A stretch of DNA of 64,000 nt from an uncultured Gammaproteobacteria bacterium. GTDB lineage: Bacteria > Pseudomonadota > Gammaproteobacteria > Arenicellales > JAANXG01. Positions 18,577-63,794 of this stretch are shown here, piece after piece. The notes beneath the pieces were generated by a model that saw only the letters and a program-made list of their open reading frames with translations, did no database searches and was not told the origin of the DNA. Within the stretch, counting starts at the first letter, position 1. Each line of letters opens with the position of its first letter. Position numbers and translations under genes: made by a program. The DNA is taken from positions 2,197 to 66,196 of the forward strand of contig CAMYNL010000009.1 of NCBI GenBank assembly GCA_947259705.1, given 5' to 3'.

Positions 18577-18662
18577 CCCGCGCTTCCGCCCCACCCGAAG
18601 GCGCCCCACGGGATGGTCGGCCGGGCGCGGCCGGCAGCCATCGTGGTGCCGCGGATCTGGCT

Positions 18663-39577: not shown

Positions 39578-40405
39578 TCAATCCCGAACAGGCCTCGTGC
39601 CGTCGCCATTGATAGAGGGTTCAGCGCAAGCCGGTTGGGACGTCGGTGTTCGCTTACGCAACATGTCATAGATGAACCAAGCCCCCAGGGCGGCCATCAG
39701 GTGTTTCAGCGCGTGGCCACCCAGCCACCCCCGTGTCAAAGCGAATACCGCGTGGTCGGAGAATTCCAATGCCTTGGACAGCAGGTAACAGATCAGCGCG
39801 TAGGGGAGGTAGCGCCGGTGTGTGAATCCGTTGTTAAAAAACAGTATCAGAAACGGGATCACGAGCATCGGGATGCCCTGAACCCAGATGTACAAACGGA
39901 GGTCTCCCCCCTGTTGCCAAAGGAAAACGCTGAACATGCCCAGGCCTACGGCCGGCAGCAGCAGGAATCTCTCCAGCCTCGGCGTCACGAATTCACTGAG
40001 CACGGCCACAAAGACTCCCGTGAACCCGAGCGTCATGGGTAGTCGATCCAAGACCAATGTCTGGTCACTGGGCTCCCAGTGATAGTACATCGAGCCGAGG
40101 CACGTCAGGCCGACCCCGATGAAAAACACGCACCACGACAGGCGGGGTGGTCGGTGCGATGTCTTCAGGGCATGACCCAGACCAGCGCCGCCTACGAACA
40201 GAAATGGAAGGTTCGACAAGACGTTCTGCCAGTTCGGTATACCCAACAGGCTGCGTTGATCCGCAAACTGATGATAGAAGGGGTCCTGCGCGATGGGGTC
40301 CAGCCAGAACACCGCCACAAAAGACCCGGCTGTTATGATAAGCAACAGCCGGTGGCGCCAATCGGTTGTGCCTTCTCTACCCACGACGAGCGCGGTTGCG
40401 CACAC
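39578..40405 (-). CDS. Ceramidase (alkaline phytoceramidase-like) family membrane protein
   Basis: 275 aa, 7-TM-like; N-terminal pattern DPFYHQFADQRSLLGIPNWQNVLSNLPFLFVG that I associate with bacterial ceramidase-domain proteins. GTG start. Confidence 0.6.
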   Translation of the reverse strand: MCATALVVGREGTTDWRHRLLLIITAGSFVAVFWLDPIAQDPFYHQFADQRSLLGIPNWQNVLSNLPFLFVGGAGLGHALKTSHRPPRLSWCVFFIGVGLTCLGSMYYHWEPSDQTLVLDRLPMTLGFTGVFVAVLSEFVTPRLERFLLLPAVGLGMFSVFLWQQGGDLRLYIWVQGIPMLVIPFLILFFNNGFTHRRYLPYALICYLLSKALEFSDHAVFALTRGWLGGHALKHLMAALGAWFIYDMLRKRTPTSQPACAEPSINGDGTRPVRD

Positions 40406-43855: not shown

Positions 43856-43995
43856 CGGATATCTTCGCCATGGGGAGACAGGGGCATTGTAATCCACCGC
43901 CGGGGACCGTTGAACACGGATGCACCGGCTGCGTCGGGTCGTGTCGTCGCGCCGCCACCCGTCAATCACCCTGCTGACGGCGACGGCTTCAGCGG

Positions 43996-51274: not shown

Positions 51275-51372
51275 GGATCGGTTCCGCCGCGGCGATGCAT
51301 GGGGTACGAGGGCCGGATCATAGCAATCGTTGCGATCCCGCTCCAATACGGCGCCGGGGCCGAATTGGTACA

Positions 51373-52590: not shown

Positions 52591-53571
52591 ATGACGGACC
52601 TGGTCACCGGCGCCAGTGGATTTATCGGCAGCCATCTGGTAGAGGCCTTGGTGTCGCAGCGACGCCCCGTGCGCTGCCTGGTGCGCGACCGGCAGCGATT
52701 GCGGTGGCTGGCGGGACAACCTGTTGAAATCGTCGAGGGAGACTGCGCAAGGCGGGAGACCCTGACGGAGGCCACGTACGGGGTTGATCGAGTGTTCCAT
52801 ATTGCCGGAGCGTCCTGGGCCGCCACCGCAACCGAGTTCTACCGACAGAACGCAACCGGCACCCGCAATCTGCTGCAGGCCTGTGCGTCCAACGCGCCCC
52901 AACTGCGGCGGTTCGTACTGGTGTCCAGCCAGGCCGCCAGCGGACCAGCGAGCGGTCGCGGGACAGTTGGGGAAAACGATCCGCCGCGGCCCGTCAGTGC
53001 CTACGGTGAGAGTAAACTGGCTGCGGAGCGTTATGCACAACAATACCGTGATCGGATCCCGATCACTATAATCCGCCCTTCAACGGTGTACGGACCTAGG
53101 GATCGGGCGTTTTTGCCCTATTTTCGCTTGGTTCGTCGCGGTTTCCTGTTAGAATTTGGCGCTGGCGCGCGCGATGTCAGCTTGTGTCACGTTTCCGATC
53201 TGGTCGCGGGCTTGATGCAGGCGGCCGATAGCCAATCGGCCTCGGGATCGGTATATTTTGTTGCGGACTCAGAACCGTATTCCTGGCAAAGGGTCGAAGA
53301 GATGGTGTGCGGCATCCTGGGGGTCAGCGCAAAACGGTTGATCCTCCCGGGGTGGATGCTCTATGTAATTGGCAGCCTGGGCCAGGTTTTCAGCGCGGTA
53401 AGCCGCGTACCGGTGCAACTTAATCGTGCCCGAGCCGCGGAATTGCTAGAGCGCAGATGGGTGTGCGACACCAGTCTGGCGCGGCGAGAATTGGGCTACG
53501 AGTCAAGAACGACATTAGAGGCTGGACTTCGGCAATTAGTCCGCTGGTATGAACAAGAAAATTGGTTATGA
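52591..53571 (+). CDS. NAD(P)-dependent extended SDR (epimerase/dehydratase/reductase family)
   Basis: 326 aa; TGASGFIGSHL Rossmann motif; catalytic YGESK; ATGA-coupled to the downstream alpha-oxoamine synthase. Confidence 0.85.
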   Translation: MTDLVTGASGFIGSHLVEALVSQRRPVRCLVRDRQRLRWLAGQPVEIVEGDCARRETLTEATYGVDRVFHIAGASWAATATEFYRQNATGTRNLLQACASNAPQLRRFVLVSSQAASGPASGRGTVGENDPPRPVSAYGESKLAAERYAQQYRDRIPITIIRPSTVYGPRDRAFLPYFRLVRRGFLLEFGAGARDVSLCHVSDLVAGLMQAADSQSASGSVYFVADSEPYSWQRVEEMVCGILGVSAKRLILPGWMLYVIGSLGQVFSAVSRVPVQLNRARAAELLERRWVCDTSLARRELGYESRTTLEAGLRQLVRWYEQENWL

Positions 53572-54824
53572 CACACCGGTCACTCGCTAAGCAGGACATT
53601 GTCGGTCGGGTAGATGGTCTCTTGGAAGTTCCGGCGAAGCGCGCCGGCATCTTTGACAAGTGCCGCAAATTCACGCGTGCGCAGGAACTGATGGCGGTCG
53701 GCCTTTATCCGTATTTCCACAAGGTCGAGTCGGCGCAGGAGCCCGAGGTCGTTTGCGACGGGCGCCCGATGATCATGATGAGTTCCAACAATTACCTCGG
53801 GCTCACCAACCATCCCAGAGTCAAGGAAGCGGCGATCGACGCCGTGAGGCGTTATGGCACTGGCTGCGCGGGTTCCCGATTTCTCAACGGCACTCTGGCC
53901 ATACACGAGGAGCTGGAAGACCGTCTGGCAACATTTCTCGGCAAGCAAGCGGCGATCGTCTTCCCGACGGGGTTTCAGGCCAACCTTGGTGCTATTTCCG
54001 CCCTGGTCGGGAAGAATGAACTGATCGTGATCGACAAGATGAATCACGCCAGTATCTTCGACGGTTGCCGTCTGTCTTTCGGCCAGATAAGGAAGTTCCG
54101 GCACAACGACATGCAGGACCTGGAGCGCATCCTGGCCAGCAACGAGGGACGCGGTGCCCTGGTGGTGGTGGATGGCGTGTTCAGTATGGAGGGAGATATC
54201 GCGGATCTGCCGGGGCTGGTCGACGTGTGCGGCCGATATGGCGCCGGCATCATGGTGGATGATGCCCATGGCTTGGGTGTGCTGGGCGAGAACGGGCGCG
54301 GGACCGGCGAGCATTTCGGCATGGAAGATGACATTGATCTCGTCATGGGCACCTACAGCAAGTCCCTGGCAACAATCGGCGGATGCCTGGCGGCAGACAG
54401 TGACGTCATCGATTACCTGAAACACCATGCAAGGTCCCTCATGTTCTCAGCCAGTCTGCCCCCGGCACCGGTGGCGGCTGCGCTGACGGCGCTGGACATC
54501 ATCGAAAGCGAACCTGAACGGCGCGAAAGGTTGTGGCGCAATGCACGTTACCTGGCAGAGGGTTATCGCCAGCTGGGGTTCGATATCGGTACCAGCGAAA
54601 CACCGATCATCCCGGTGATGGTCGGGGACGAGGAGAAGGTGCTGGTGATGTGGCGCCGACTTTTTGATGCCGGAGTTTTCGCCAGCCCGGTGCTCTATCC
54701 GGCGGTACCACCCGGCATGGCACTGATTCGCACGAGCTGCATGGCTACCCACACCGTGACCCATCTGGATCAGGTCCTGGACGTATTCGGCCGGGTCGGT
54801 CGTGACATGGGCCTGCTCAGTTAG
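53568..54824 (+). CDS. Alpha-oxoamine synthase, serine-palmitoyltransferase-like
   Basis: N-terminal FTRAQELMAVGLYPYFHKVES...MMSSNNYLGL; PLP-lysine motif GTYSKSLATIGG (SPT-like rather than BioF/KBL GTxGKA); DDAHGLG; RTSCMATHT. Confidence 0.8.
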   Translation: MTHRSLAKQDIVGRVDGLLEVPAKRAGIFDKCRKFTRAQELMAVGLYPYFHKVESAQEPEVVCDGRPMIMMSSNNYLGLTNHPRVKEAAIDAVRRYGTGCAGSRFLNGTLAIHEELEDRLATFLGKQAAIVFPTGFQANLGAISALVGKNELIVIDKMNHASIFDGCRLSFGQIRKFRHNDMQDLERILASNEGRGALVVVDGVFSMEGDIADLPGLVDVCGRYGAGIMVDDAHGLGVLGENGRGTGEHFGMEDDIDLVMGTYSKSLATIGGCLAADSDVIDYLKHHARSLMFSASLPPAPVAAALTALDIIESEPERRERLWRNARYLAEGYRQLGFDIGTSETPIIPVMVGDEEKVLVMWRRLFDAGVFASPVLYPAVPPGMALIRTSCMATHTVTHLDQVLDVFGRVGRDMGLLS

Positions 54825-54934
54825 CCGATCATCATTGGGCTGGCCTCCTCTCAATTCCCTGCCTTGAAGCGCTGCTCCCGGCCGAGGAGATGGCTTCGGG
54901 CTTGCAGCTTCTCCACCGACCAGGAGGGCGCGTA

Positions 54935-55990
54935 ATGGTCCGGCGCAGCTTCCTATCGTGTGCGGTAATAGTTCTGCTCGCGGTCTGCGGACCGTTGCCG
55001 GCCTCGGAGGACGATCTCCGTCCGCAGTTGCTTCAGGACGAGCTCTATACCGAGGGCTGGGACTACTATTTTCTCTTCGACGACGGCACCTGGGTCACCG
55101 TGCAGACCTTTATCAGCAACTTCGGCCCCGGGAATCATCGCGGGCTGGTGATCGGCACGATCACGAAAGCTGATGACGAATCCATAGTTATCAAGAACGG
55201 GCGCCCGAGGGAAAAATGGCAGTTCTCCGAGTCCGGATATGACTTCAAACTCGCCCGACATCATCTGATGGGCGAGTTCCCCGACTACCGGCTGCGGCTC
55301 CGCAACCGTCGTGGTGAGCTGGAGATTGATCTGACCGCTACGGCCCCGCCATGGCGGCCGATGACTGGACAGGTCTCGGAGGAACGGCACTACGTATCCA
55401 TGTTTCTGACCCAGCTGCGTGCCGAGGGGCGCTACCGTTCGGGGGGCGATGGCGATGCTGAAGCGCCCTGGCGACGTTTGCAGGGGGGGGTGGGTTACGC
55501 AGTGCGTTACCTCAACGCTAAGTCGTTGTCGAAGGTCGCATCCGGGTGGCTGAGGCTGGCGCCTTGGCAGGCCGAGGGGGATGACAAGCCTCTATTGCTG
55601 CTGCTCACACAACCCGATGGACAGCAAACCAATCATATGGCCCTGCTCACCGGAGACGTCATCCGCTGGCAAGGCAGTGGATTTTCGGTAAGTTACGAGG
55701 AAGCCGTCAGCATGGTGCCCAACGGTCACCTGATCCCGCAGACAATATCACTGGACGTGGAGCATGGAGGAACCTCCATCTCGGGCACGGTCCGGGTGCG
55801 GCAACTGTTGCAGCGATTTGATTTCGTTGGTGAACTTAAGAACCTGGAGCGGATTTTCGTTCGCTTCATTAATACGCCCATCCACTATCGCTACCTTGCC
55901 GACTACGATTTCCAGGTAAGAGACAGCGGGGGCGTGCGCCGCTTGACGGGAAGCGGCTTTGCGGAGTACATGACCCTGAAATACCAGTGA
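54935..55990 (+). CDS. Secreted hypothetical protein (beta-rich; possibly AttH/CrtC lipocalin-like)
   Basis: Trimmed to MVRRSFLSCAVIVLLAVCGPLPASE (signal peptide) with an AGGAGG RBS. EGWDYYFLFDDGTWVTVQTFISNFG is reminiscent of the AttH-like fold; the family call is tentative. Confidence 0.55.
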   Translation: MVRRSFLSCAVIVLLAVCGPLPASEDDLRPQLLQDELYTEGWDYYFLFDDGTWVTVQTFISNFGPGNHRGLVIGTITKADDESIVIKNGRPREKWQFSESGYDFKLARHHLMGEFPDYRLRLRNRRGELEIDLTATAPPWRPMTGQVSEERHYVSMFLTQLRAEGRYRSGGDGDAEAPWRRLQGGVGYAVRYLNAKSLSKVASGWLRLAPWQAEGDDKPLLLLLTQPDGQQTNHMALLTGDVIRWQGSGFSVSYEEAVSMVPNGHLIPQTISLDVEHGGTSISGTVRVRQLLQRFDFVGELKNLERIFVRFINTPIHYRYLADYDFQVRDSGGVRRLTGSGFAEYMTLKYQ

Positions 55991-56035
55991 TGGCCGCGCC
56001 GCTGGTCGAAACAACGGGCTGTTGAAGACCTCGAA

Positions 56036-58495
56036 GTGAGTACATTCGACGACGATTCCATCTCCGACAGGCCACGATGGGCCGGTGCCGTCGCAAGCGG
56101 CGTCATCCGCGGCTACCTGTTAATACTGCTCGCAACCGGGGTTTCCGGATACTACAGCTTCGATCTGGCCAAGTCGCTGAAACTGAACACTGACATCGTT
56201 TCTTTGATGCCGGAGGGTGTGCCCAGCGTCGACAACCTGCAGCGGGTAATCGAGAAGACCGGCGGTTATGCGAATGTCATGGTGCTGGTGGAGTCCACGG
56301 ATCCGGACGCCGCGCTGCGATTTCTGGATGACCTGCGCGACGAGCTGCTGCAATTGGATTGGGTAAGCAGTGCTGAGTACGCGGAGGACACGGCGGTTTT
56401 TCAGCGTAATCGGCTGCTCTATGTCGATGTGGAAGACCTTCGGGTAATCAACGAGCGACTGGCCGCGCGTATAGACTACGAAAAGAAGAACATCACTTTC
56501 AGCGTAGAGGACACGCCGGTTGAAATCACCATACGTGGCGCTGAGAGAAGGCTACCTTCGCTGGATTTCCAGGACATCAAGAAGAAGTACGAAGGCGAGC
56601 AAACCGATACGAAAAAGCAACATGTATTCCGTAACGAGTCTGGAGACCTGACCATCATGGTCGTGCTCCCGCGAGGCAGCACGACGAACGTTTCATATTC
56701 GCGCGAGGTGATCGCTGACATCGACCGACTGGCCAGACAAGTCGATCCGGCGAGTTATCACCCAGAAATGACGGTACTCATCGGCGGTCGTGTCAAGAAC
56801 CTGGTCGCCAAGTTCGATGCCATCATGTCTGATATCCGCGGCAGCGGCCTGTGGTCAATCGCCAGCATCCTGCTGGTGGTGGTGATCTATTACCGCCGTC
56901 TGATGGCGATCTTGTACATAGGGTTGCCGCTTGTGATCGCGTTCCTCTGGACCTTCGGGATAACCCAGGTCTACCTCGGCGGCCTTAATCTCATCACTAT
57001 TTTTTTGGTGCTTATCCTGTTCGGCCTGGGTATAGATTTCGGTATACACAACCTGGCTCGATACGATGAGGTGCGCCGTGATGGCGGCACCATGCGGGAC
57101 GCGCTGGAAACGGTGTACTCGCGCACCGGTCGCGCATCCCTGCTCGCGGGCGTCACCACCGTGGTCGGCTTTTATTCCCTGATGACGACGGACTTCAGGG
57201 CATTTTATGAGTTCGGATTCATCGCCGGCACCGGCGTGGCACTGGCACTGGTCTCCATGTATCTGGTTTTCCCGTCCCTCATGGTGCTGGCGGAGAAGAC
57301 ACGGATCTACCGGGTAATGCGCCGCGATGACGAGAACGCGGGCAAGACCGCCGGCCCGATGCCTTTTGCGCTTCCAATCATTATTGTGGGCACAATCTTG
57401 TGTCTCGTGAGCATCATGCTGGTACCGCAGCTCCGGTTCGAGGATGATTTCGACAAGATCAACACCCAGGTACGGGAGATAAGCAGCCTGAACGGGAAGA
57501 TCAAGCAGGTTTTTCCGCTGAGGTCGGACCGCGCGGTCGTATTTGTGGACACCCTGGAGGACGTCAGCGCCGTGGTGCAGGAAGTCGAAAGAATAAAGCA
57601 GCAGCGCCCCCCGGAAGAAGCCACCATCGAGAAGGTCAAGTCTATCTACAGTGTGGTCCCCAGCTCTGCGGACCAGGAAGACAGATTGCGGGAGATCGAA
57701 CGAATCGATGAGCAGATCCGCGAGGCTGTGGAGATGCTGGAGCAGTTCGGCGAAAAAGACGACGATCGCAAGAAGGAGCTGCAGGAACTGCGCGAGAACT
57801 TCGGAGTGTCTGCACTGCAGCCGAAGGATCTGCCCCCGGCCCTGCAACAGATCTATACAGGTGTGCCGGGATCGGGTGGATACCTGGTCTACATATTCAA
57901 CCTCAAACCGACCTCGAAACTGGAGGACGCACAGGCATTCGTCGATGACATCCGCGAGATTAGGATCAACGGCAAGACCTATCATCCCGCTACCGAGGCG
58001 ATGGTATTCGTCGATATGCTGAATCTGATGAAGGATGATGCCACAGGGGCCGTTGCAGCGGTGCTCGCCGCGATATGCCTGGTCCTGCTGCTCGCTACGC
58101 GGGAATTCAAGAGCGCCGTTTTGGTGCTGATACCGGTGCTGGTGGGGATGTTGTGGATGCTCGCAATCATGGCCGCCCTCGGCATCCGGCTCAACATATT
58201 CAACATGGTCGTGCTGCCCACCGTCCTCGGTATCGGAATCGACAACGGCATCCATATCTATCATCGATTTTGCGAAGAAGGACGTCACCATGTACGGCAT
58301 GTAATCAGGACCACTGGCGGCGCTGCCTTCCTGACCACTTTGACCACCATGCTTGGATTCGCCGGGACCCTCACTGCCTCCAACCAGGGCCTGCAGTCGC
58401 TCGGCCTGGTGGCTTGCATAGGCCTGTTTGCCTGTATGATCAGCTCGCTGACGGTGTTTCCGGCGCTCCTGCAGTCCATCGAAAGGCGTTCCTGA
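56036..58495 (+). CDS. MMPL/HpnN-like RND-superfamily lipid exporter
   Basis: 819 aa; two 6-TM bundles, each after a large soluble loop. Duplicated signature LFGLGIDFGIHNLARY / VLGIGIDNGIHIYHRF. Confidence 0.82.
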   Translation: MSTFDDDSISDRPRWAGAVASGVIRGYLLILLATGVSGYYSFDLAKSLKLNTDIVSLMPEGVPSVDNLQRVIEKTGGYANVMVLVESTDPDAALRFLDDLRDELLQLDWVSSAEYAEDTAVFQRNRLLYVDVEDLRVINERLAARIDYEKKNITFSVEDTPVEITIRGAERRLPSLDFQDIKKKYEGEQTDTKKQHVFRNESGDLTIMVVLPRGSTTNVSYSREVIADIDRLARQVDPASYHPEMTVLIGGRVKNLVAKFDAIMSDIRGSGLWSIASILLVVVIYYRRLMAILYIGLPLVIAFLWTFGITQVYLGGLNLITIFLVLILFGLGIDFGIHNLARYDEVRRDGGTMRDALETVYSRTGRASLLAGVTTVVGFYSLMTTDFRAFYEFGFIAGTGVALALVSMYLVFPSLMVLAEKTRIYRVMRRDDENAGKTAGPMPFALPIIIVGTILCLVSIMLVPQLRFEDDFDKINTQVREISSLNGKIKQVFPLRSDRAVVFVDTLEDVSAVVQEVERIKQQRPPEEATIEKVKSIYSVVPSSADQEDRLREIERIDEQIREAVEMLEQFGEKDDDRKKELQELRENFGVSALQPKDLPPALQQIYTGVPGSGGYLVYIFNLKPTSKLEDAQAFVDDIREIRINGKTYHPATEAMVFVDMLNLMKDDATGAVAAVLAAICLVLLLATREFKSAVLVLIPVLVGMLWMLAIMAALGIRLNIFNMVVLPTVLGIGIDNGIHIYHRFCEEGRHHVRHVIRTTGGAAFLTTLTTMLGFAGTLTASNQGLQSLGLVACIGLFACMISSLTVFPALLQSIERRS

Positions 58496-58525
58496 GGGTC
58501 GCCCGGATCGGTTGGGTGGCCGCCC

Positions 58526-59794
58526 ATGGCAAGAAGCAGACAGAGAGTGAGACAAATTTCCGGAGATCATCGCGCCACCCGCGTGCTTTTTCTGAACAGC
58601 TGTGTGAATGGCGGCGGAGCCGGCCGCAGTCTCGCGGCGCTTCTGAGCGTGCCGCAAGAAGGAATGGAATCCTGGGTGGTGATGCCCGAACCCGGAGTCG
58701 TTGCCGCACACCTGCGAGGGGTTGCCCATATCGAGTATGTGCCGGAATTCGTCGAGCGACTCGGACGGTCGCCCTATGCATGGCCGGACCGGCTCCGGAT
58801 GCAATGGCTGCACGGGCCCGCCAGTGCGTATGCACTGGCGCTTGCGACCCGCAAGATCATTGCGCTGGCGCGGCGCATCAAGCCCGACGTGATTCACTGC
58901 AACCATATGCTCGCCAAGCCGATCGGTACAATGGTCGGCGCTGCCGTGGGCATTCCGGTGGTGTTTCATTCCCGCGCCGTCCATCAGATCCCCATTGACG
59001 GCGCCTTTTACAGCTGGTTGGGAGCCCGCAAGGCGGTGAGCCGGATCATCTGTAATTCGGCAGCCAGCGCGGAGGTGTACCGGCGGCGCAGCGCCGAGAA
59101 GATTACGATCATCCCGAACAGTATCGATGTCTCTGTCTTCAGCCGGCGGCAGACGGCGCCGCGCCTGCGCTTGGAGTGCGGACTCGCCGCTGACGATTTC
59201 GTGGTGGGGTTCGTGGGCCGCTTGCACCCGAAAAAGGGGCTGGACTGGCTATTGCGGTCGTTCGCTTCTCTTTGTCGCGGACATCGCAATTCGGTGTTGG
59301 TGGTGCTGGGTGATAATGATGGCGGCCTGCACTATGACGCCGGGAAGGGCAGCCGGGATCTTGCCGCGGCGCTGGGGATCGGTGAGCGGGTGATCTTCAC
59401 CGGGTTTCGCGATGATGTCCGTCCCTACATGGCCGACTTCGACGTTCTGGCCTTTCCGTCGCGACTGCCGGAGTCTTTCGGCCGGGTGATCCTCGAGGCG
59501 ATGGCACTGGAGGTGCCAGTCGTGGTCGCGGCTCATGGCGGCGCGATCGAGGTGGTGGAAGATGGCCGACAGGGCCTGTGGGTGGAGGTAGAGGACGAGC
59601 CAGGGTTGGCCGACGCGCTCGAGCAGCTGGCCAAAGACGCAGAGCTGCGCCGGCGCATGGGCAGGGCGGGCCGCGAGCGCGTTGCGGCGCTTTACGATGT
59701 CGCGCCGGTCGCCAGGCGGGTGTTCGGGGTGCTGGCGAATGCGGCCCGGGACTGCGGCCCCTTGCGGCGCAGCCTCCCCGCCAGCGAAGGTTAG
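58526..59794 (+). CDS. Glycosyltransferase family 4 (GT-B, Glycos_transf_1)
   Basis: 422 aa; E-x7-E region PSRLPESFGRVILEAMALEVPVV; GRLHPKKG motif. Confidence 0.85.
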   Translation: MARSRQRVRQISGDHRATRVLFLNSCVNGGGAGRSLAALLSVPQEGMESWVVMPEPGVVAAHLRGVAHIEYVPEFVERLGRSPYAWPDRLRMQWLHGPASAYALALATRKIIALARRIKPDVIHCNHMLAKPIGTMVGAAVGIPVVFHSRAVHQIPIDGAFYSWLGARKAVSRIICNSAASAEVYRRRSAEKITIIPNSIDVSVFSRRQTAPRLRLECGLAADDFVVGFVGRLHPKKGLDWLLRSFASLCRGHRNSVLVVLGDNDGGLHYDAGKGSRDLAAALGIGERVIFTGFRDDVRPYMADFDVLAFPSRLPESFGRVILEAMALEVPVVVAAHGGAIEVVEDGRQGLWVEVEDEPGLADALEQLAKDAELRRRMGRAGRERVAALYDVAPVARRVFGVLANAARDCGPLRRSLPASEG

Positions 59795-60606
59795 ATCCGA
59801 CCCGCCATACTGCCCAGGGAAACAGGTGTCAGGCCGCGCGCCCGCAGCCCCTCGAGCATGGCGGGGAGCGCCGTCACCAGGCTGTCCCGGGAACCCATTG
59901 CGCCGGGCGGATAGCCGTCGTGCATCACCACCACGTCGCCGCTCGCGGCCCTCGACAGCAGGCGTTCCAACAGTTCTTCGGGGGGGGGGTTCTGGACGTC
60001 CCAGATCGGGTAACCGTACCCGACCAGGCGCAGCGAGCGCCGCCGCAACTCCGCGTGCAGCATTGGGTTTTTGTATCCCTTGGGACAGCGAAAAAACCGC
60101 GGGCTCACCTGGGTCGCATCCTCGATGCTGTGTTGACAGCGGTCCAGTTCCTCGGCGATCTGCCGACGGGACGCGAACATCAGGTTGCGGTGGGTTTGGG
60201 TATGATTGCCGAGTGTATGGCCCCTGGCCACGATGGCCCTGGCCAGTTCAGGCGCCCGGACTACGTTTTCGCCGATACAAAAGAAACTCGCCTTGGCCCC
60301 GTATTGCTCCAGGATCTCCAGTATCTCCCGCGTGTAGGGCTCCACCGGTCCGTCGTCGAAGGTCAACGCAATCGGAGAACGGTTGTCACTCCCGGGCGGG
60401 ATGCGGACGATAGCGGGGGCGAACAGATTCACCCGGGGATGGAACGCGTCCAACGCCAGTACGGCCAGGATCGCAGAGAACGATCCCATCACTGCGAGCA
60501 CCCAGCCGGGAGCGCCCACGATACCGGTAAGCACGATTATCGCCGCCCAACCCGACAGATAAAGGGCGACGTAAACAAGTATCTTTAGTCGCGCGGCGAA
60601 GGGCAT
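59791..60606 (-). CDS. Membrane-anchored NodB-type polysaccharide/carbohydrate deacetylase
   Basis: Trimmed to MPFAARLKILVYVALYLSGW... (two TM helices); NodB motifs TFDDGP and NHTQTH. Its stop overlaps the GT4 stop by 4 nt (convergent). Confidence 0.82.
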   Translation of the reverse strand: MPFAARLKILVYVALYLSGWAAIIVLTGIVGAPGWVLAVMGSFSAILAVLALDAFHPRVNLFAPAIVRIPPGSDNRSPIALTFDDGPVEPYTREILEILEQYGAKASFFCIGENVVRAPELARAIVARGHTLGNHTQTHRNLMFASRRQIAEELDRCQHSIEDATQVSPRFFRCPKGYKNPMLHAELRRRSLRLVGYGYPIWDVQNPPPEELLERLLSRAASGDVVVMHDGYPPGAMGSRDSLVTALPAMLEGLRARGLTPVSLGSMAGRI

Positions 60607-60655
60607 ATCGGAATGGTGCGGGCGCGAAGGCCGGATGCAAAGGGTAGAGCGTGTC

Positions 60656-61732
60656 CTATGGTCTGGCACCGGGGTCGGGCAGCAGCTGGGGACCACGCCA
60701 GCGATCGAACATGCTCATCTGATGGACGCACGCCAGGGTACAGGTCGGGCTGCATTCCTTGCGGGTCTTGTACTCCCGGTTCAGGTCAGCGGGCGTGTAC
60801 TCGGTGACAGGAATATTTGGATAGCCACGGCGCTGGGAGCACCAGTGTACCCTGCCTTCCTCACAGATATAGAGGTACCTGGCGCCCGCGCGGCACTGCC
60901 AGTCGTTGGATCGACCGAAGATAAGATTACGCTGGTAAAGACGATAATTCAGCCTGTGAGTCAGGGATTTCGAGACCCGGGTGACCCTGCGATATACAGC
61001 TAGCTGCCTGTCGTTGAGCGGTTTGAGCAGCCCGTTGTGATCATGCAGAACGCCAACCGAGTGGTAAAAGCCGTATCCGGCGGCCGTGTCGGCGACGGCC
61101 AGCGCATCTTCTGTACGTTCCTCGCTAACGCCCAGGACCGAGTTGATGTTCACCTTGAAGCGCGCGTGCTCCGCGAGCAGGGCCAGTTTTTTGTCCACCG
61201 AATTGAGACTTTTCATGGACACCTCGTCCGGCTCGAGATTATCGATGCTGATCTGCATCTCCTGCAGACCGGCGTCGTTCAGCGCTTCAATGCGCTCCTG
61301 GTTGAGTCGGAAGCCGTTGGTGATCATGGTGGCGATCATTTTTCGTCGGCGGATCGCCCGCACCACCTCCGCCAACTGCGGATGCAGCAGCGGTTCGCCG
61401 CCCGTCAGCGTGACTGCGGCCGTATTCAGGGCGGCCAGTGCGTCCACCTGGCGCAGCAACTGGTCCGTGGCCACCGGGGGTGAGAAATCGTCGTACTCGT
61501 TGCAGTAGCCGCAGGCCAGGTTGCAGCGTCGGGTAACGACCACCTGAGCCAGCAGGGGCGTGTGCCTGGTAAGGGTCGCGCGGCGCAGAAAGCGTGCCGC
61601 AGACATCGCATTGTCGACTCTGCGTGAGAGGCTGGATCGCGTCATGAAATCAAATAACTCCGTAGGTCCGACGGCGCGGGTCGCCGGGATGTCTGGTTTC
61701 GAAGGCTTGAAAAATCTTGCTTCGGCCCCCAT
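60656..61732 (-). CDS. Radical SAM protein with Cys-rich (SPASM-like) C-terminus
   Basis: CNLACGYCNEY (CxxxCxxC), GGEPLLHP; C-terminal cysteines CRAGARYLYICEEGRVHWC...CSPTCTLAC. Start may be an internal Met (61645 or later). Confidence 0.85.
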   Translation of the reverse strand: MGAEARFFKPSKPDIPATRAVGPTELFDFMTRSSLSRRVDNAMSAARFLRRATLTRHTPLLAQVVVTRRCNLACGYCNEYDDFSPPVATDQLLRQVDALAALNTAAVTLTGGEPLLHPQLAEVVRAIRRRKMIATMITNGFRLNQERIEALNDAGLQEMQISIDNLEPDEVSMKSLNSVDKKLALLAEHARFKVNINSVLGVSEERTEDALAVADTAAGYGFYHSVGVLHDHNGLLKPLNDRQLAVYRRVTRVSKSLTHRLNYRLYQRNLIFGRSNDWQCRAGARYLYICEEGRVHWCSQRRGYPNIPVTEYTPADLNREYKTRKECSPTCTLACVHQMSMFDRWRGPQLLPDPGARP

Positions 61733-61787
61733 GTGACAAGGGCGCGTATTATCGGTGAGGGGATCGGGACGCGCAAGCTCAACTCGT

Positions 61788-61824
61788 TGGAAAACTTGGG
61801 TTTTCCAGGAAAATTTGTTATAAT
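61788..61824. promoter_or_regulatory. Overlapping palindromes plus TATAAT box in an AT-rich divergent promoter region
   Basis: TGGAAAA-cttggg-TTTTCCA overlapping TTTTCCAGGAAAA (61788-61813), then TATAAT at 61819-61824. Confidence 0.4.
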
Positions 61825-61943
61825 TTTCTATTGGTCTGAAGCTCGATCCCCGCGCGCAGGGCTGAGCGACGAAATCGAGTGGGCCGGTTTGTAGCAGGGC
61901 GATTGCAAACGAACAGATTTAACTATCGCGGCATCGGGGACTT

Positions 61944-62600
61944 ATGACTAACATTCTGAAAATGTTGCCTGTTTTGATTATCGGCGCAAGTTTTGCCGGC
62001 GCCGCCGCCGGCTCGGAATGCGCGACGCGACCCGTCGCCATGACGGAAGACGGCGTGGCCGTGGTTGACGCCAAGCAGAAGGTGGAGATCGAGGCCGACG
62101 AAATCACCTTCCCGCGCCGGAACGTGGTCAAGCTGCGGGGTTATACCCAGTTGATTCGCGGCGGCCAGCGCGTCTACGCCGACGAACTGGTTTACGACAA
62201 GGCGCACGGTGAGGTCGAGGCCCGGGGCGTGGTGAAGTTCCAGTCACCCCAGGGCGACGAGATCCGGACCTCGGTGCTCCGTTACGACATCAATCAGAGC
62301 AGGGCCGTGTCCGGGCCGGCGAACTTCACCATCGCCGCGCGTAAGACGAGCACCCTCGGATCCGGTGACAGCGCAGTCAACGCCCACGGCACCGCCGATC
62401 GCGTTGTCTTCGAACGCGGCGACGTCATGAGGCTCGAGAACGCGGAGGTGACCACCTGTCTGGACGGCAAGGACGACATCACTTTTACCGCCCAGGACAT
62501 CAAGGTCGACCTGAACAAGGGTATACGCACCGCGCGCCGCGCCAAGGTGCAGATTCTAGTCCCCGAGCGCCATTCGAAACTGAAGGGGATGGTCAACTAA
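61944..62600 (+). CDS. Stand-alone paralogue of the LptD N-terminal (OstA beta-jellyroll) domain
   Basis: 218 aa; signal peptide. Aligns by eye (about 30-35% identity) to residues ~55-290 of the lptD product in this window, e.g. VEIEADEI/IELEGDEV, EVEARG/EVEASG, LENAEVTTCLDGKDD/FENVTYTTCNEGNDD. Ends where the LptD barrel would begin. Confidence 0.75.
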   Translation: MTNILKMLPVLIIGASFAGAAAGSECATRPVAMTEDGVAVVDAKQKVEIEADEITFPRRNVVKLRGYTQLIRGGQRVYADELVYDKAHGEVEARGVVKFQSPQGDEIRTSVLRYDINQSRAVSGPANFTIAARKTSTLGSGDSAVNAHGTADRVVFERGDVMRLENAEVTTCLDGKDDITFTAQDIKVDLNKGIRTARRAKVQILVPERHSKLKGMVN

Positions 62601-62735
62601 CCCCCGCCCGCAATGCTGCGGACGGTGCAGTGCCCCACACGCGGCCCGGGTGCCTCGCGCCCGTCGGGGCAAGATGGGTGCCGCACTGCAACGGGATCGG
62701 CACTCCCCCGCGGATTTCGTCACGACTGATCTGTT

Positions 62736-63794
62736 ATGGTAGACCATGTTGACGTATCCGCAGCCGCCCTGCGCAGGTCCGTCGCAGACCTGTTCGACCC
62801 CAAGCCCGCGATCTACTGGCTTGATCTTTGCTTGACCGGGGCCACGGGCTGGCTTGCATTCTCGTTGGCGGTCGCGGTGGCCCCGGGCAGTCCGGCGTGG
62901 GTCGTCTGGACCCTGCTGGCGATACTCGCCTTGTATCGGGCCGCGGTCTTCACCCACGAGCTGGTGCACATTCGCAAGGAGCGGCTACCCGGGTTCCGCA
63001 CCGCCTGGAACCTGATCTGCGGCGTACCGTTGCTGGCCCCCTCCTTCATGTACGACGGCGTGCACCAGGAACACCATTTTCGCAGCCGGTACGGTACCTC
63101 CCGCGACGGGGAATATCTGCCCTTTGGCACACCGCCGCGATCGCGCATCCTGGTTTATTTCGCCTCCCACCTGCTGCTGCCGCCGCTGGCCGTGATCAGG
63201 TTCGGCCTGCTGGCACCATTGTCGCTGTTATCCCAATCCTGGCGGCGGGCGCTGCTGGAACGGGCCTCATCCCTTTCTATCGATCCGGGTTATCATCGCT
63301 CGGTACCCGACCCTGTCCCGGCGAGTTGGGCGCGGCAGGAGTTTGCCTGCGCCGCGTTCGTGTGGGCGGTGGCGGTATCCGTGGTCTCTGGACAGCTGCC
63401 GTTGTCGGTGTTGATGCAGTATTACGTGACCTTGCTGGGAATACTGTTGTTCAACGCGATACGCACGCTGGCCGCCCACCGTTACCGTAATCGGGACCGA
63501 ACGCTCTCGTTTTCGGAGCAACTGGCGGATTCGATCAACGTCACCGGTGGTGGTCTGGCCACGGTCCTGCTGGCACCGGTGGGACTGCGCTACCACGCTC
63601 TGCACCACCTGTTTCCCACCATGCCATACCACAGCCTGGGTGCGGCGCATCGCCGGCTGCTTGAGAAACTCCCAGCGGGTTCCGCTTATCATGAGACCCT
63701 GCGCAGGAACATTCCTCAGGCATTGCGTGAACTGTGGCGCGCCGCGTCGACGATCAACCGCGCAGCGCAGCCTGAACCGCCCGCGGCCTCGTAG
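62736..63794 (+). CDS. Membrane fatty-acid/sphingolipid-type desaturase family protein
   Basis: 352 aa; three His boxes HELVH, HQEHH and HALHH; four or more TM segments. Confidence 0.85.
   Translation: MVDHVDVSAAALRRSVADLFDPKPAIYWLDLCLTGATGWLAFSLAVAVAPGSPAWVVWTLLAILALYRAAVFTHELVHIRKERLPGFRTAWNLICGVPLLAPSFMYDGVHQEHHFRSRYGTSRDGEYLPFGTPPRSRILVYFASHLLLPPLAVIRFGLLAPLSLLSQSWRRALLERASSLSIDPGYHRSVPDPVPASWARQEFACAAFVWAVAVSVVSGQLPLSVLMQYYVTLLGILLFNAIRTLAAHRYRNRDRTLSFSEQLADSINVTGGGLATVLLAPVGLRYHALHHLFPTMPYHSLGAAHRRLLEKLPAGSAYHETLRRNIPQALRELWRAASTINRAAQPEPPAAS

What the first reader, a model, noticed from the sequence alone, without database searches (positions are those of the whole stretch)
52591..63794. 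Candidate amino-lipid/sphingoid glycolipid synthesis and outer-membrane export locus
Nine adjacent genes have no housekeeping role and together form a coherent lipid pathway.
- Entry: an extended SDR is ATGA-coupled to an SPT-like alpha-oxoamine synthase.
- Transport: a signal-peptide beta-rich protein and a 12-TM MMPL/HpnN-like exporter.
- Tailoring: a GT4 glycosyltransferase, a TM-anchored NodB deacetylase, a radical SAM enzyme and a three-His-box desaturase.
- Periplasmic step: a stand-alone LptD N-domain paralogue.

The glycosylate, de-N-acetylate, radical-SAM-remodel and RND-export logic parallels hopanoid side-chain tailoring (HpnI/HpnK/HpnJ/HpnN). Here, however, the enzyme families differ and the entry point is a long-chain-base module.

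I know of no described pathway with this combination. By eye, parts of it (for example 53.1-53.6 kb and 56.4-57.6 kb) are less GC-rich than the housekeeping genes. No ACP, acyl-CoA ligase or N-acyltransferase is visible, so the locus may continue past 64000.
Basis: partly seen in the sequence, partly recalled or inferred. Interest (0 to 1): 0.82.

Follow-up and report, generated by a model that had tools for sequence, protein, structure and literature searches.

The report
Sphingolipid-type synthesis and export locus
An uncultured marine gammaproteobacterium carries a serine-palmitoyltransferase-like gene block that probably makes a sphingolipid-type lipid and also encodes three candidate carriers for moving it to the outer membrane, a step still unknown in bacteria.

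Summary
All nine genes are real and belong to the predicted families. Two of them (NodB, radical SAM) lie on the minus strand, so there are three transcription units.

**Conserved core.** The core is an SDR overlapping (ATGA) an alpha-oxoamine synthase, then protein X, then an MMPL/HAE3 RND pump.
- The synthase is 52% identical to the characterised Sphingobacterium serine palmitoyltransferase and much further from KBL and BioF.
- The SDR-synthase pair recurs in Nitrospirota. SDR-synthase-MMPL sits at the same rnd-flanked site in every Arenicellales-like relative retrieved.
- The "beta-rich" protein X is a secreted tandem lipocalin, remotely homologous to Svf1, the yeast ceramide-binding protein.
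- The 218-aa protein is a true paralogue of the LptD N-terminal jellyroll. A full-length lptD lies 45 kb upstream.

**What is not supported.** The nine genes are not shown to be one pathway.
- GT4 and NodB occur only in this species. Relatives carry CDP-alcohol phosphotransferases, a Wzx-like flippase and an OlsC-like hydroxylase in that slot.
- The radical SAM/LptD-N pair, sometimes with the desaturase, also occurs apart from the core.
- There is no island signature. No ACP, acyl ligase or N-acyltransferase was found in the window's larger ORFs or in relatives' blocks.

**Verdict:** partly supported. This is a new variant of bacterial sphingolipid loci with testable transport candidates.

The parts
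52591..53571 (+). Extended SDR (NAD-dependent epimerase/dehydratase family). It has no signal peptide. Proposed role: 3-keto reductase for the synthase product.
   Evidence: PF01370 E 7.5e-38. The best NCBIfam hit is HpnA at 151 bits, below its cut-off of 367; OleD scores 97 bits. The N-terminal TGxxGxxG and the YGESK motif are visible in the translation. The stop codon overlaps the AOS start (ATGA). The pairing is conserved in all relatives and in Thermodesulfovibrio aggregans, where the SDR is 37% identical.
53568..54824 (+). Serine-palmitoyltransferase-like alpha-oxoamine synthase (PLP-dependent).
   Evidence: NF047600 (Bacteroidetes-type SPT) scores 548.8 bits, below its cut-off of 640. 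PDB scores: S. multivorum SPT 449 bits, Sphingomonas SPT 310, KBL 294, cysteate acyltransferase 281, BioF 231. Identity to 8guh is 52% over 384 aligned positions, with the equivalents of Lys244, His138 and the DDAH motif conserved. Identity to relatives is 76-86%.
54935..55990 (+). Protein X: a secreted tandem-lipocalin protein, Svf1/AttH/CrtC-like. Proposed role: periplasmic sphingolipid or ceramide binder.
   Evidence: It has a signal peptide and no direct Pfam hit. The AF2 model has pLDDT 81.6 and pTM 0.82. Foldseek finds AttH 2ich, CghA, Fsa2, kievitone hydratase and 25-phosphosteroid lyase at E about 1e-10. The family profile finds 507 representatives. Of 133 scanned, 50 hit PF17187 Svf1_C, with a best E of 8.4e-20. 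hhalign to one of these gives probability 99.3%.
56036..58495 (+). MMPL/HAE3-family RND transporter, HpnN-like. Proposed role: lipid exporter.
   Evidence: PF03176 E 2.4e-33 in two stretches, plus sterol-sensing domain hits. TIGR03480 HpnN scores 304.6 bits against a cut-off of 751.9, HAE3 208 bits and BstA 204.6 bits. The only PDB sequence matches are HpnN entries 6wu0 and 5khn. Identity to relatives is 58-64%, and the gene is always downstream of the AOS.
58526..59794 (+). GT4 glycosyltransferase, the last gene of the plus-strand operon. It is specific to this lineage.
   Evidence: PF00534 E 5e-37 and PF13439. No equivalog model is reached. It is found only in same-species contigs L001 and L002.
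59791..60606 (-). NodB-family deacetylase with two N-terminal TM helices, downstream of the rSAM on the minus strand. It is specific to this lineage.
   Evidence: PF01522 E 4e-33. TM segments at residues 9-27 and 34-52. The gene call of 271 aa comes from L001. It is found only in L001 and L002.
60656..61732 (-). Radical SAM enzyme with a Cys-rich C-terminal auxiliary-cluster domain. Its chemistry is unknown.
   Evidence: PF04055 E 7.9e-21; only generic NCBIfam hits, and HpnH scores 46.9 against a cut-off of 225. The CX3CX2C motif and six C-terminal Cys are invariant. Identity is 57-74% where it lies beside LptDN in L013, L018, L020, L025, L027 and L028, and at the flank edge of L004, L006, L009, L011 and L012.
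61944..62600 (+). Stand-alone paralogue of the LptD N-terminal beta-jellyroll (OstA fold), with a signal peptide.
   Evidence: PF03968 at 21.0 bits (cut-off 20.4) and the LptD model PRK03761 at E 3e-7. The AF2 model has pLDDT 78.8. The best Foldseek matches are LptD N-domains (E 7e-8, TM 0.58, rmsd 3.0 A), followed by LptA and LptC. It is 28% identical (E 7e-25) to residues 34-222 of the window's own LptD. C26 and C172 are invariant in 29 family members. All 62 homologues are short, 133-289 aa, and most are about 190-250 aa.
62736..63794 (+). Membrane fatty-acid-desaturase-family enzyme with three His boxes, downstream of the LptD-N paralogue.
   Evidence: PF00487 E 8.3e-25. His boxes at residues 74, 110 and 287, and five hydrophobic segments. 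Orthologues (58% and 56% identity) lie directly downstream of LptDN in L023 and L026.
16333..18576 (+). Canonical full-length LptD, followed by surA at 18663-19994. It is context showing that the 218-aa protein is a paralogue and not a split LptD.
   Evidence: PF04453 E 3.9e-97. The translation shows the N-domain Cys pair and the C-terminal CC.
39578..40405 (-). Alkaline-ceramidase-family membrane protein. It may be related and is not part of the block.
   Evidence: PF05875 at 35.2 bits (cut-off 32.5). At least 5 hydrophobic segments.

Best explanation
**Conserved core: making and exporting a sphingoid-type lipid.**
- The SPT-like PLP enzyme condenses serine, or a close analogue, with an acyl thioester to give a 3-keto long-chain base.
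- The translationally coupled cytoplasmic SDR reduces the 3-keto group.
- N-acylation to ceramide, if it occurs, needs an enzyme encoded elsewhere.
- The MMPL/HAE3 RND pump extracts the lipid from the inner membrane.
- Protein X, the secreted Svf1-like tandem lipocalin, binds the lipid in the periplasm. It acts either as a shuttle or to present the lipid to head-group enzymes.

**Lineage-variable slot.** A slot downstream of the pump holds head-group and tailoring genes. Here it holds GT4 plus NodB, which would add a HexNAc and de-N-acetylate it to an amino sugar. In relatives it holds inositol-type CDP-alcohol phosphotransferases, a Wzx-like flippase and an OlsC/LpxO-like acyl 2-hydroxylase.

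**Second, separable module.** This is the radical SAM gene divergent from a stand-alone LptD N-domain paralogue, here with a desaturase. It probably tailors an envelope lipid and offers a jellyroll docking point toward the Lpt bridge or the outer membrane.

**Shown versus inferred.** Shown: the families, folds, homologies and gene neighbourhoods. Inferred: every substrate, the order of steps, and the link between the two modules.
For: **SPT identity.**
- 449 bits and 52% identity to the characterised S. multivorum SPT, against 294 bits for KBL and 231 for BioF.
- The best NCBIfam model is the Bacteroidetes-type SPT.

**Reductase coupling.**
- ATGA overlap.
- The same overlapping pair occurs in Nitrospirota.
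- An epimerase/dehydrogenase-family reductase next to spt is also the Caulobacter arrangement (PMC9386255).

**Pump.**
- SDR-AOS-MMPL is conserved at the mpl-rnd site in every gammaproteobacterial relative retrieved.
- M. xanthus has an MmpL gene directly downstream of spt (bioRxiv 10.64898/2026.04.12.717747).

**Protein X.**
- Signal peptide and a tandem-lipocalin model.
- Homology to Svf1-domain proteins. Svf1 binds ceramide between its two lipocalin domains (PMC10038888).
- X-like domains are fused to CDP-alcohol phosphotransferases in P0305 and P0306.
- In Emcibacter, X sits beside a CDP-alcohol phosphotransferase, a Wzx-like flippase, an NTP transferase and an inositol-1-phosphate synthase.

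**Variable slot holds lipid enzymes.**
- OlsC-like hydroxylase at 266.8 bits and IPCT/DIPPS-like phosphotransferases.

**LptD-N paralogue.**

**Ceramidase-family gene in the window.**
Against: - The AOS misses the curated equivalog cut-offs of all three NCBIfam SPT models (548.8 against 640). The amino-acid substrate is therefore unproven.
- No N-acyltransferase (bCerS), ACP or acyl-ACP synthetase was seen among the roughly 50 larger ORFs scanned in the window or in relatives' blocks. Small genes such as an ACP were not scanned.
- The SDR's nearest solved relatives are sugar-nucleotide epimerases and a sterol dehydrogenase, not a known ketosphinganine reductase.
- X itself gives no direct Svf1 hit. 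Its fold family also contains enzymes (hydratases, lyases, cyclases).
- X is absent from one Arenicellales sub-lineage (L017, L022, L024) and decayed in L018.
- GT4 and NodB have no orthologues in any other locus.
- The rSAM/LptD-N module occurs without the SPT module, and 70 kb away from it on one contig.
- All close relatives belong to one order, so shared synteny is weak evidence of shared function.
- No lipid data exist for these uncultured organisms.
Confidence: 0.6

Rival explanations
1. Three unrelated units lie side by side only because of shared ancestry. Unit 1 is the sphingoid-lipid operon (SDR-AOS-X-MMPL). Unit 2 is GT4 and NodB, serving a polysaccharide or LPS-type glycan. Unit 3 is rSAM, the LptD-N paralogue and the desaturase, serving a separate envelope or LPS-transport function.
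For: - The modules separate in other genomes. L017, L022 and L024 have SDR-AOS-MMPL followed by an AraC-family gene.
- L020 has Wzx-rSAM-LptDN-MltA and no SPT module within 10 kb.
- On one 270-kb contig the two modules are 70 kb apart.
- GT4 and NodB are generic polysaccharide families with no orthologues in relatives.
- rSAM-LptDN-...-mltA is a conserved frame in its own right.
Against: - GT4 is the last gene of the SPT operon, 30 bp after the MMPL gene. NodB is the last gene of the rSAM unit, 49 bp after it. A GT/deacetylase pair would therefore bridge both conserved units.
- The same slot in relatives holds lipid enzymes (an OlsC-like acyl hydroxylase and CDP-alcohol phosphotransferases).
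- Homologues of X associate with exactly those enzyme types in an alphaproteobacterium and in fusion proteins.
Confidence: 0.28
2. The synthase makes a non-sphingolipid aminolipid or signal, which the pump then exports. Candidates are a capnine-like sulfonolipid base from cysteate, a 1-deoxy base from alanine or glycine, or an alpha-hydroxyketone-type molecule.
For: - All three SPT equivalog cut-offs are missed.
- The cysteate acyltransferase (281 bits) and the autoinducer synthase CqsA (146 bits) are detectable homologues.
- No ceramide synthase lies nearby.
- The same SDR-AOS pair occurs in Thermodesulfovibrio, for which I know of no reported sphingolipids (own knowledge).
Against: - The score to characterised SPT (449 bits) is far above the scores to the cysteate acyltransferase, KBL, BioF and CqsA.
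- Spt-like genes have been reported in MAGs of 38 phyla, often without linked bCerS or CerR genes (PMC11334938).
- The Svf1-like neighbour and a ceramidase-family gene fit a sphingolipid.
Confidence: 0.1
3. This is a hopanoid or sterol-like triterpenoid tailoring and export locus, as the first reader's HpnI/HpnK/HpnJ/HpnN analogy would suggest if read literally.
For: The best NCBIfam names are HpnA for the SDR (151 bits) and HpnN for the pump (304.6 bits). The BstA sterol transporter scores 204.6 bits. The fold relatives of X include a 25-phosphosteroid lyase.
Against: - All of these scores are far below the model cut-offs of 367, 751.9 and 1400.
- The rSAM is not HpnH (46.9 against 225).
- No squalene-hopene cyclase or other Hpn gene was found among the window ORFs scanned or in relatives' gene tables.
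- An SPT-like enzyme has no role in hopanoid synthesis (own knowledge).
Confidence: 0.02

Closest known systems
Bacteroidetes/delta-proteobacterial subgroup of bacterial serine palmitoyltransferase (e.g. Sphingobacterium multivorum SPT, PDB 3a2b/8guh; Myxococcus xanthus spt with a downstream MmpL gene)
   Same: The AOS is 52% identical to the S. multivorum enzyme and keeps its catalytic residues. There is no dedicated ACP or acyl-ACP synthetase next to it. An MMPL-family pump lies downstream, as reported for M. xanthus (bioRxiv 10.64898/2026.04.12.717747).
   Different: The host is a gammaproteobacterium. Published surveys place gammaproteobacterial SPTs in the other subgroup, which always has AcpR/AasR alongside (PMC9386255). 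The AOS scores below the curated SPT cut-off. Its partners here (an overlapping SDR, an Svf1-like lipocalin and an LptD-N paralogue) were not found described for the known loci in my paper searches.
Caulobacter crescentus sphingolipid locus (spt, acpR, aasR, cerR, bCerS; LptF2/LptG2/LptC2 transport paralogues)
   Same: An SPT sits next to an epimerase/dehydrogenase-family reductase. An Lpt-family paralogue lies in or near the sphingolipid locus, which fits the idea that sphingolipid export converges on the Lpt machinery (bioRxiv 10.64898/2026.04.12.717747; PMC9386255).
   Different: Here there is no ACP, synthetase, bCerS or LptFGC paralogue. The duplicated Lpt part is the LptD N-domain, and that preprint states that no duplication of LptA or LptD/E was found in any sphingolipid locus. 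Export here would use an RND pump rather than an ABC transporter. The SDR has no signal peptide, whereas CerR is reported to be periplasmic (PMC11087976).
Yeast Svf1, a tandem-lipocalin ceramide-binding protein (PMC10038888)
   Same: Protein X has two lipocalin-like beta-barrels. Relatives of X carry the Pfam Svf1_C and Svf1 domains. X is encoded beside an SPT-like gene.
   Different: X has a signal peptide in place of Svf1's N-terminal amphipathic helix, so it would work in the periplasm. X gives no direct Pfam Svf1 hit. Ligand binding has not been tested. The same fold also supports enzymes such as CrtC, kievitone hydratase and Diels-Alderases.
HpnN / BstA lipid-exporting HAE3 RND transporters (hopanoid and sterol export)
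   Same: Same transporter family, with two MMPL halves and sterol-sensing-domain-like helices. HpnN is the only solved homologue detectable by sequence. BstA works with periplasmic lipid-binding partners (own knowledge).
   Different: Scores are far below the HpnN and BstA cut-offs. No triterpenoid synthesis genes are nearby. The predicted cargo is a sphingoid lipid.
Glycosyltransferase + NodB deacetylase routes to amino-sugar lipids (HpnI/HpnK in hopanoids; HexS/HexD in Clostridioides difficile; own knowledge)
   Same: A GT and a membrane-anchored NodB-family deacetylase are encoded tail to tail. This fits the logic of adding HexNAc and then de-N-acetylating it.
   Different: The enzyme families and sequences are not orthologous to those systems. 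No dedicated flippase lies beside them. The pair is restricted to this species among the loci examined.

Membership tests
Bacterial serine palmitoyltransferase (Bacteroidetes/delta subgroup) | Alpha-oxoamine synthase fold with the PLP lysine and the catalytic His/Asp residues. | tested here: met
   PF00155 E 4e-59. The equivalents of Lys244, His138 and the DDAH motif are conserved in the alignment to 8guh.
Bacterial serine palmitoyltransferase (Bacteroidetes/delta subgroup) | Closer to characterised SPT than to KBL, BioF, ALAS, CqsA or the cysteate acyltransferase. | tested here: met
   449 bits to SPT, against 294, 231, 199, 146 and 281 bits respectively. Identity to SPT is 52%.
Bacterial serine palmitoyltransferase (Bacteroidetes/delta subgroup) | Reaches the curated equivalog score of an NCBIfam SPT model. 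| tested here: not met
   NF047600 548.8 against 640; NF047599 417.3 against 500; NF047603 349.7 against 670.
Bacterial serine palmitoyltransferase (Bacteroidetes/delta subgroup) | Condenses L-serine with a long-chain acyl thioester. | not testable with these tools
   This needs an enzyme assay or lipidomics.
Complete bacterial ceramide pathway (Spt + bCerS + CerR) | A reductase of the epimerase/dehydrogenase SDR type linked to spt. | tested here: inconclusive
   An extended SDR overlaps the AOS and the pairing is conserved across phyla. Orthology to CerR or BT_0972 could not be tested because no reference sequences were available. The nearest solved proteins are sugar epimerases.
Complete bacterial ceramide pathway (Spt + bCerS + CerR) | An N-acyltransferase (bCerS) is present. 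| tested here: not met
   No acyltransferase or GNAT domain was found among the roughly 50 larger ORFs scanned in the window or in relatives' blocks. The rest of the genome was not available.
Rhodobacteria-type spt cluster (acpR-aasR-spt) | A dedicated ACP and acyl-ACP synthetase lie adjacent to spt. | tested here: not met
   The flanks are rnd upstream and X/MMPL downstream in all loci.
Svf1-like tandem lipocalin (PF08622 + PF17187) | Two lipocalin-like beta-barrels. | tested here: met
   The AF2 model has pLDDT 81.6. Foldseek finds AttH and other two-barrel proteins at TM about 0.6.
Svf1-like tandem lipocalin (PF08622 + PF17187) | Direct match to the Pfam Svf1 models. | tested here: not met
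   No hit for X or its 9 close homologues, even at E up to 10.
Svf1-like tandem lipocalin (PF08622 + PF17187) | Homology through intermediate sequences. | tested here: met
   Of 133 profile hits, 50 carry Svf1_C (best E 8.4e-20) and 10 carry Svf1. hhalign of A1 against P0260 gives probability 99.3% and E 1.1e-20.
Svf1-like tandem lipocalin (PF08622 + PF17187) | Binds ceramide. | not testable with these tools
   This needs purification with lipid analysis, as was done for Svf1 (PMC10038888).
LptD (LPS-assembly outer-membrane protein) | N-terminal OstA beta-jellyroll with the two conserved cysteines. | tested here: met
LptD (LPS-assembly outer-membrane protein) | C-terminal 26-strand barrel (PF04453) with the CC motif. 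| tested here: not met
   The protein ends at 218 aa. All 62 homologues are 133-289 aa. The barrel is present only in the separate canonical LptD at 16333-18576. The protein is therefore a paralogue of one domain, not an LptD.
HpnN / hopanoid locus | Reaches the HpnN, HpnA and HpnH model cut-offs, and hopanoid synthesis genes are nearby. | tested here: not met
   304.6 against 751.9; 151.2 against 367.7; 46.9 against 225. No cyclase was found among the window ORFs scanned.
MMPL/HAE3 RND transporter | Two MMPL halves, each with a TM bundle and a large periplasmic loop. | tested here: met
   PF03176 matches in two stretches. HAE3 TIGR00921 scores 208 bits. Hydrophobic segments cluster at residues 267-463 and 669-807.

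The most novel reading that the evidence does not exclude
These bacteria move a sphingolipid to the outer membrane by a route not yet described. An MMPL-type RND pump hands the lipid to a secreted Svf1-like tandem lipocalin, which would be the first bacterial counterpart of the yeast ceramide carrier. A stand-alone copy of the LptD N-terminal jellyroll then feeds it into, or alongside, the LPS bridge. The head group is swapped between lineages (amino sugar here, phospho-inositol-type in relatives) by a replaceable gene cassette.
Probability: 0.3. Interest if true: 0.82.

Novelty: new variant of a known kind. Interest (0 to 1): 0.6.

Why it matters
How Gram-negative bacteria carry sphingolipids across the periplasm and insert them into the outer membrane is an open problem. 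A 2026 Caulobacter study identified the inner-membrane LptF2/G2/C2 components. It stated that the periplasmic and outer-membrane steps remain unknown, that no LptA or LptD duplicates were found in any sphingolipid locus, and that MmpL pumps might serve in other taxa.

This locus brings three concrete candidates together next to an SPT-like gene:
- an MMPL pump;
- a secreted relative of the only known lipocalin-type ceramide carrier (yeast Svf1);
- an LptD N-domain paralogue.

Each can be tested by expression, lipid pull-down and interaction assays.

The locus also shows a gammaproteobacterial order using the Bacteroidetes/delta-type SPT without the ACP and synthetase said to accompany spt in alpha-, beta- and gammaproteobacteria. 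It further suggests that head groups are exchanged as cassettes.

Tried and rejected
- **Horizontal island.** Rejected. GC and GC3 are within the window's range, and the core sits at one conserved site, mpl-rnd to mltA, across relatives.
- **Split LptD.** Rejected. A full-length lptD with all four cysteines is in the window.
- **Hopanoid locus.** Rejected. All model cut-offs are missed and no cyclase is present.
- **Seeing past 64000.** Not possible. The only contig carrying the identical desaturase is 1.7 kb long. The last 200 bases do not match the MltA C-termini of relatives, although L026 shows LptDN-desaturase-mltA.
- **Promoter and terminator scan.** It gave no more sites than shuffled sequence.
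- **SDR against solved structures.** This did not reveal a ketosphinganine-reductase relative.
- **LptD-N paralogue against PDB by sequence.** Nothing was found. Only the fold search was informative.
- **afdb50 fold search for X.** The library was unavailable.
- **Literature searches.** Searches for Arenicellales sphingolipids and for Arenicella polar lipids found nothing.
- **Metagenome scan with the LptD-N profile.** It returned only four short loci.
- **Thermodesulfovibrio neighbour.** The 276-aa gene after the AOS is an unrelated coiled-coil protein.

Full report
**1. What is in the sequence**

ORF listing and profile searches confirm nine genes of the predicted families:

| Gene | Coordinates | Strand |
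|---|---|---|
| SDR | 52591-53571 | + |
| Alpha-oxoamine synthase (AOS) | 53568-54824 | + |
| Protein X | 54935-55990 | + |
| MMPL-type RND pump | 56036-58495 | + |
| GT4 | 58526-59794 | + |
| NodB deacetylase | 59791-60606 | - |
| Radical SAM enzyme | 60656-61732 | - |
| LptD_N-like protein | 61944-62600 | + |
| Fatty-acid desaturase | 62736-63794 | + |

- The SDR stop codon overlaps the AOS start as ATGA.
- Spacings are 110, 45 and 30 bp along the plus-strand run. GT4 and NodB overlap tail to tail by 4 bp. NodB lies 49 bp after the rSAM. The rSAM and the LptD_N-like gene diverge across 211 bp.
- The block is therefore three transcription units, not one.
- The two N-terminal TM helices of NodB, the three His boxes of the desaturase (HELVH, HQEHH, HALHH) and the signal peptides of X and the LptD_N-like protein are all present.

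**2. Composition**

GC falls to 0.557-0.61 at 53-58 kb. Comparable values occur at 21-23 kb and 31-34 kb. GC3 of the locus genes (0.71-0.82) lies within the spread of the window's genes. Nothing marks an island.

**3. The entry module**

- The best curated model for the AOS is the Bacteroidetes-type serine palmitoyltransferase. It scores 548.8 bits, below the cut-off of 640.
- Against solved structures it scores 449 bits to Sphingobacterium multivorum SPT. It scores 310 to Sphingomonas SPT, 294 to KBL, 281 to the sulfonolipid cysteate acyltransferase, 231 to BioF and 146 to CqsA.
- Identity to the S. multivorum enzyme is 52% over 384 positions. The PLP lysine and the catalytic His and Asp residues are conserved.
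- Published work divides bacterial SPTs into two subgroups. One is a Bacteroidetes/delta-proteobacterial subgroup. The other covers alpha-, beta- and gammaproteobacteria and is always accompanied by a dedicated ACP and acyl-ACP synthetase (PMC9386255). This gammaproteobacterial enzyme belongs by similarity to the first subgroup and lacks those neighbours.
- The SDR is an extended SDR with an N-terminal Rossmann motif and a YxxxK motif, and it has no signal peptide. Its database names (HpnA-like, OleD-like, 3-beta-HSD-like) are all below cut-off.
- The strongest evidence for the SDR's role is its linkage. The same overlapping SDR-AOS pair is present in every relative and in Thermodesulfovibrio aggregans of the Nitrospirota, where the SDR is 37% and the AOS 64% identical.

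**4. Conservation of the block**

X has only ten homologues in the word-indexed search of 5.8 billion proteins. I traced the loci with X, the AOS and the LptD_N-like protein as anchors. These are uncultured Gammaproteobacteria and Arenicellales MAGs. The picture is as follows.

- (a) mpl-rnd-SDR-AOS-MMPL is conserved at one chromosomal site in every gammaproteobacterial relative. Identities are AOS 76-86%, MMPL 58-64% and SDR 52-57%.
- (b) X lies between the AOS and the pump in one set of lineages (37-43% identity). It is absent in another set, where an AraC-family gene follows the pump (L017, L022, L024). In L018 it has decayed to a 54-residue remnant.
- (c) The rSAM (57-74% identity) and the LptD_N-like gene (40-66%) form a conserved divergent pair, usually followed by mltA.
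  - The pair lies after the pump in the window, L013 and L018. By rSAM position and matching contig lengths, it probably does so in L004-L012 as well.
  - It also occurs with no SPT module within 10 kb (L020).
  - On one 270-kb contig, an LptD_N-like gene lies 70 kb from SDR-AOS-MMPL. There it has a desaturase downstream and an NTP-transferase gene upstream in place of the rSAM (L023, L024).
- (d) The desaturase follows the LptD_N-like gene in the window, L023 and L026 (58% and 56% identity).
- (e) GT4 and NodB have no orthologue outside same-species contigs.
- (f) Between the pump and the rSAM, relatives carry other genes:
  - CDP-alcohol phosphotransferases most like inositol-phosphate transferases;
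  - a Wzx-like flippase;
  - a second rSAM/SPASM enzyme;
  - an OlsC/LpxO-like lipid acyl 2-hydroxylase at 266.8 bits.

The nine genes are therefore not one conserved block. They comprise a conserved core, a conserved but separable second module, and a variable slot.

**5. Protein X**

- The AF2 model is confident (pLDDT 81.6, pTM 0.82). It consists of two beta-barrels.
- Its structural neighbours are AttH (2ich), the fungal decalin-forming cyclases CghA, Fsa2 and Phm7, kievitone hydratase and a 25-phosphosteroid lyase.
- A profile of the family finds 507 representatives among 1.84 billion proteins, 187 of them at E up to 1e-10.
- Of 133 representatives scanned, 50 carry Pfam Svf1_C (best E 8.4e-20), 10 carry the Svf1 N-terminal lipocalin domain and 17 carry CrtC.
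- A profile-sequence comparison of X's family with one Svf1_C-positive member gives 99.3% probability over 301 columns. X itself gives no direct Pfam hit, so the link runs through intermediate sequences.
- Two relatives of X are fusions with CDP-alcohol phosphotransferases.
- In an Emcibacter MAG, the X homologue (27% identity) lies between a CDP-alcohol phosphotransferase and a Wzx-like flippase. An NTP transferase and a myo-inositol-1-phosphate synthase are nearby. That gene set resembles the proposed CDP-inositol route to inositol lipids (PMC9246714).
- X therefore associates repeatedly with lipid head-group chemistry. It is best read as a periplasmic lipid-binding protein, although an enzymatic role is not excluded.

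**6. The LptD_N-like protein**

- The AF2 model (pLDDT 78.8) matches LptD N-terminal domains best (E 7e-8, TM 0.58, rmsd 3.0 A). LptA and LptC follow.
- The window also encodes a canonical 747-aa LptD followed by surA.
- The small protein aligns to LptD residues 34-222 at 28% identity (E 7e-25).
- Its two invariant cysteines (C26 and C172) correspond to the two N-domain cysteines of LptD. In LptD these pair with the barrel's CC motif, which the canonical copy has (the pairing is from my own knowledge of E. coli LptD).
- All 62 homologues are short, 133-289 aa.
- It is therefore a genuine stand-alone paralogue, not a fragment or a split gene.
- A 2026 preprint on Caulobacter reports LptF, LptG and LptC paralogues in the sphingolipid locus. 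It notes an MmpL gene downstream of spt in M. xanthus. It also states that no LptA or LptD/E duplication was found in any sphingolipid locus, and that the periplasmic and outer-membrane steps are unknown (bioRxiv 10.64898/2026.04.12.717747).

**7. Other parts**

- The pump is an HAE3/HpnN-like RND protein, well below the HpnN and BstA cut-offs.
- The rSAM has the CX3CX2C motif and six invariant C-terminal cysteines. It matches no specific family.
- Among the roughly 50 larger ORFs scanned in the window there is no ACP, acyl ligase or N-acyltransferase.
- The rest of the window holds cell-wall genes, lptD-surA, a TRAP transporter, a GGDEF-EAL protein, a 2-oxoacid:ferredoxin oxidoreductase and regulators.
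- One notable gene is an alkaline-ceramidase-family membrane protein at 39578-40405.

**8. Most likely mechanism, and its limits**

- The core most likely makes a 3-keto long-chain base and reduces it. It then exports the resulting sphingoid lipid, or a ceramide made with an unlinked acyltransferase, through the RND pump to the Svf1-like periplasmic binder.
- GT4 and NodB would give this species an amino-sugar head group. Relatives would instead install phospho-alcohol head groups.
- GT4 ends the SPT operon and NodB ends the rSAM unit. That is the best local argument that the two conserved modules cooperate. It rests on the unproven assumption that GT4 and NodB act as a pair.
- I put the core reading at about 0.6 and the single nine-gene pathway at about 0.3.
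- All substrates, the step order and the role of the LptD-N paralogue are inferences.

**9. Novelty**

- Spt-like genes are already predicted in MAGs of 38 phyla (PMC11334938), and spt next to MmpL has been noted before. The kind of system is therefore known.
- The partners are what is new here: an overlapping SDR conserved across phyla, a secreted Svf1-like lipocalin, an LptD N-domain paralogue, and a swappable head-group slot. My paper searches found no description of these.
- I rate this a new variant of a known kind, with moderate-to-high interest, because it turns an open transport question into specific experiments.

Noticed in passing
window 39578-40405 (-): A 275-aa multi-TM protein matches the alkaline ceramidase family (PF05875, 35.2 bits against a cut-off of 32.5). 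It lies 12 kb upstream of the SPT-like locus and may be a sphingolipid turnover enzyme in the same organism.
   Followed up: partly
window 16333-19994 (+): The canonical lptD (747 aa, with an N-domain Cys pair and a C-terminal CC) is followed by surA. This proves that the 218-aa LptD_N-like protein is a paralogue.
   Followed up: yes
P0305 (746 aa) and P0306 (774 aa), distant relatives of protein X: These are natural fusions of a CDP-alcohol phosphotransferase (with a GtrA-like TM domain in P0306) to an X/Svf1-like lipocalin domain. They tie this lipocalin family to head-group transfer.
   Followed up: partly
L014 7728-16593 (Emcibacter sp. MAG): An X homologue (27% identity) sits between a CDP-alcohol phosphotransferase and a Wzx-like flippase. 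An NTP transferase and a myo-inositol-1-phosphate synthase are nearby. No SPT, SDR or MMPL gene lies within 10 kb.
   Followed up: partly
L018 11597-11758: A 54-residue remnant of X (44% identity) lies in the 665-bp gap between the AOS and the MMPL gene. X appears to have decayed in that lineage while the rest of the block is intact.
   Followed up: no
L019 9078-11221 (Thermodesulfovibrio aggregans): The overlapping SDR-AOS pair is present in a cultured Nitrospirota species (AOS 64%, SDR 37% identity) without the pump, X or the Lpt paralogue. It is annotated there as 8-amino-7-oxononanoate synthase, which is probably a mis-annotation.
   Followed up: partly
window 50741-51373 (-) and its counterparts in L004, L005, L017, L018, L021: A conserved membrane protein of 169-232 aa with no Pfam family always lies between mpl and rnd, just upstream of the locus.
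   Followed up: no
L023 17325-20702: On the contig that carries the LptD_N-desaturase pair there is a second cluster: desaturase, amine-oxidase-like flavoprotein, DUF1365 and cyclopropane-fatty-acid-synthase-like methyltransferase. It looks like another lipid-tailoring set.
   Followed up: no
window 41435-43969 (-) and 43996-44553 (-): An 844-aa protein with a weak HerA/DUF87 ATPase hit lies beside a DUF937 protein. The DUF87-like gene recurs in the upstream flank in L017, L022 and L024, and the DUF937 gene in L004, L005 and L018. Their function is unknown.
   Followed up: no
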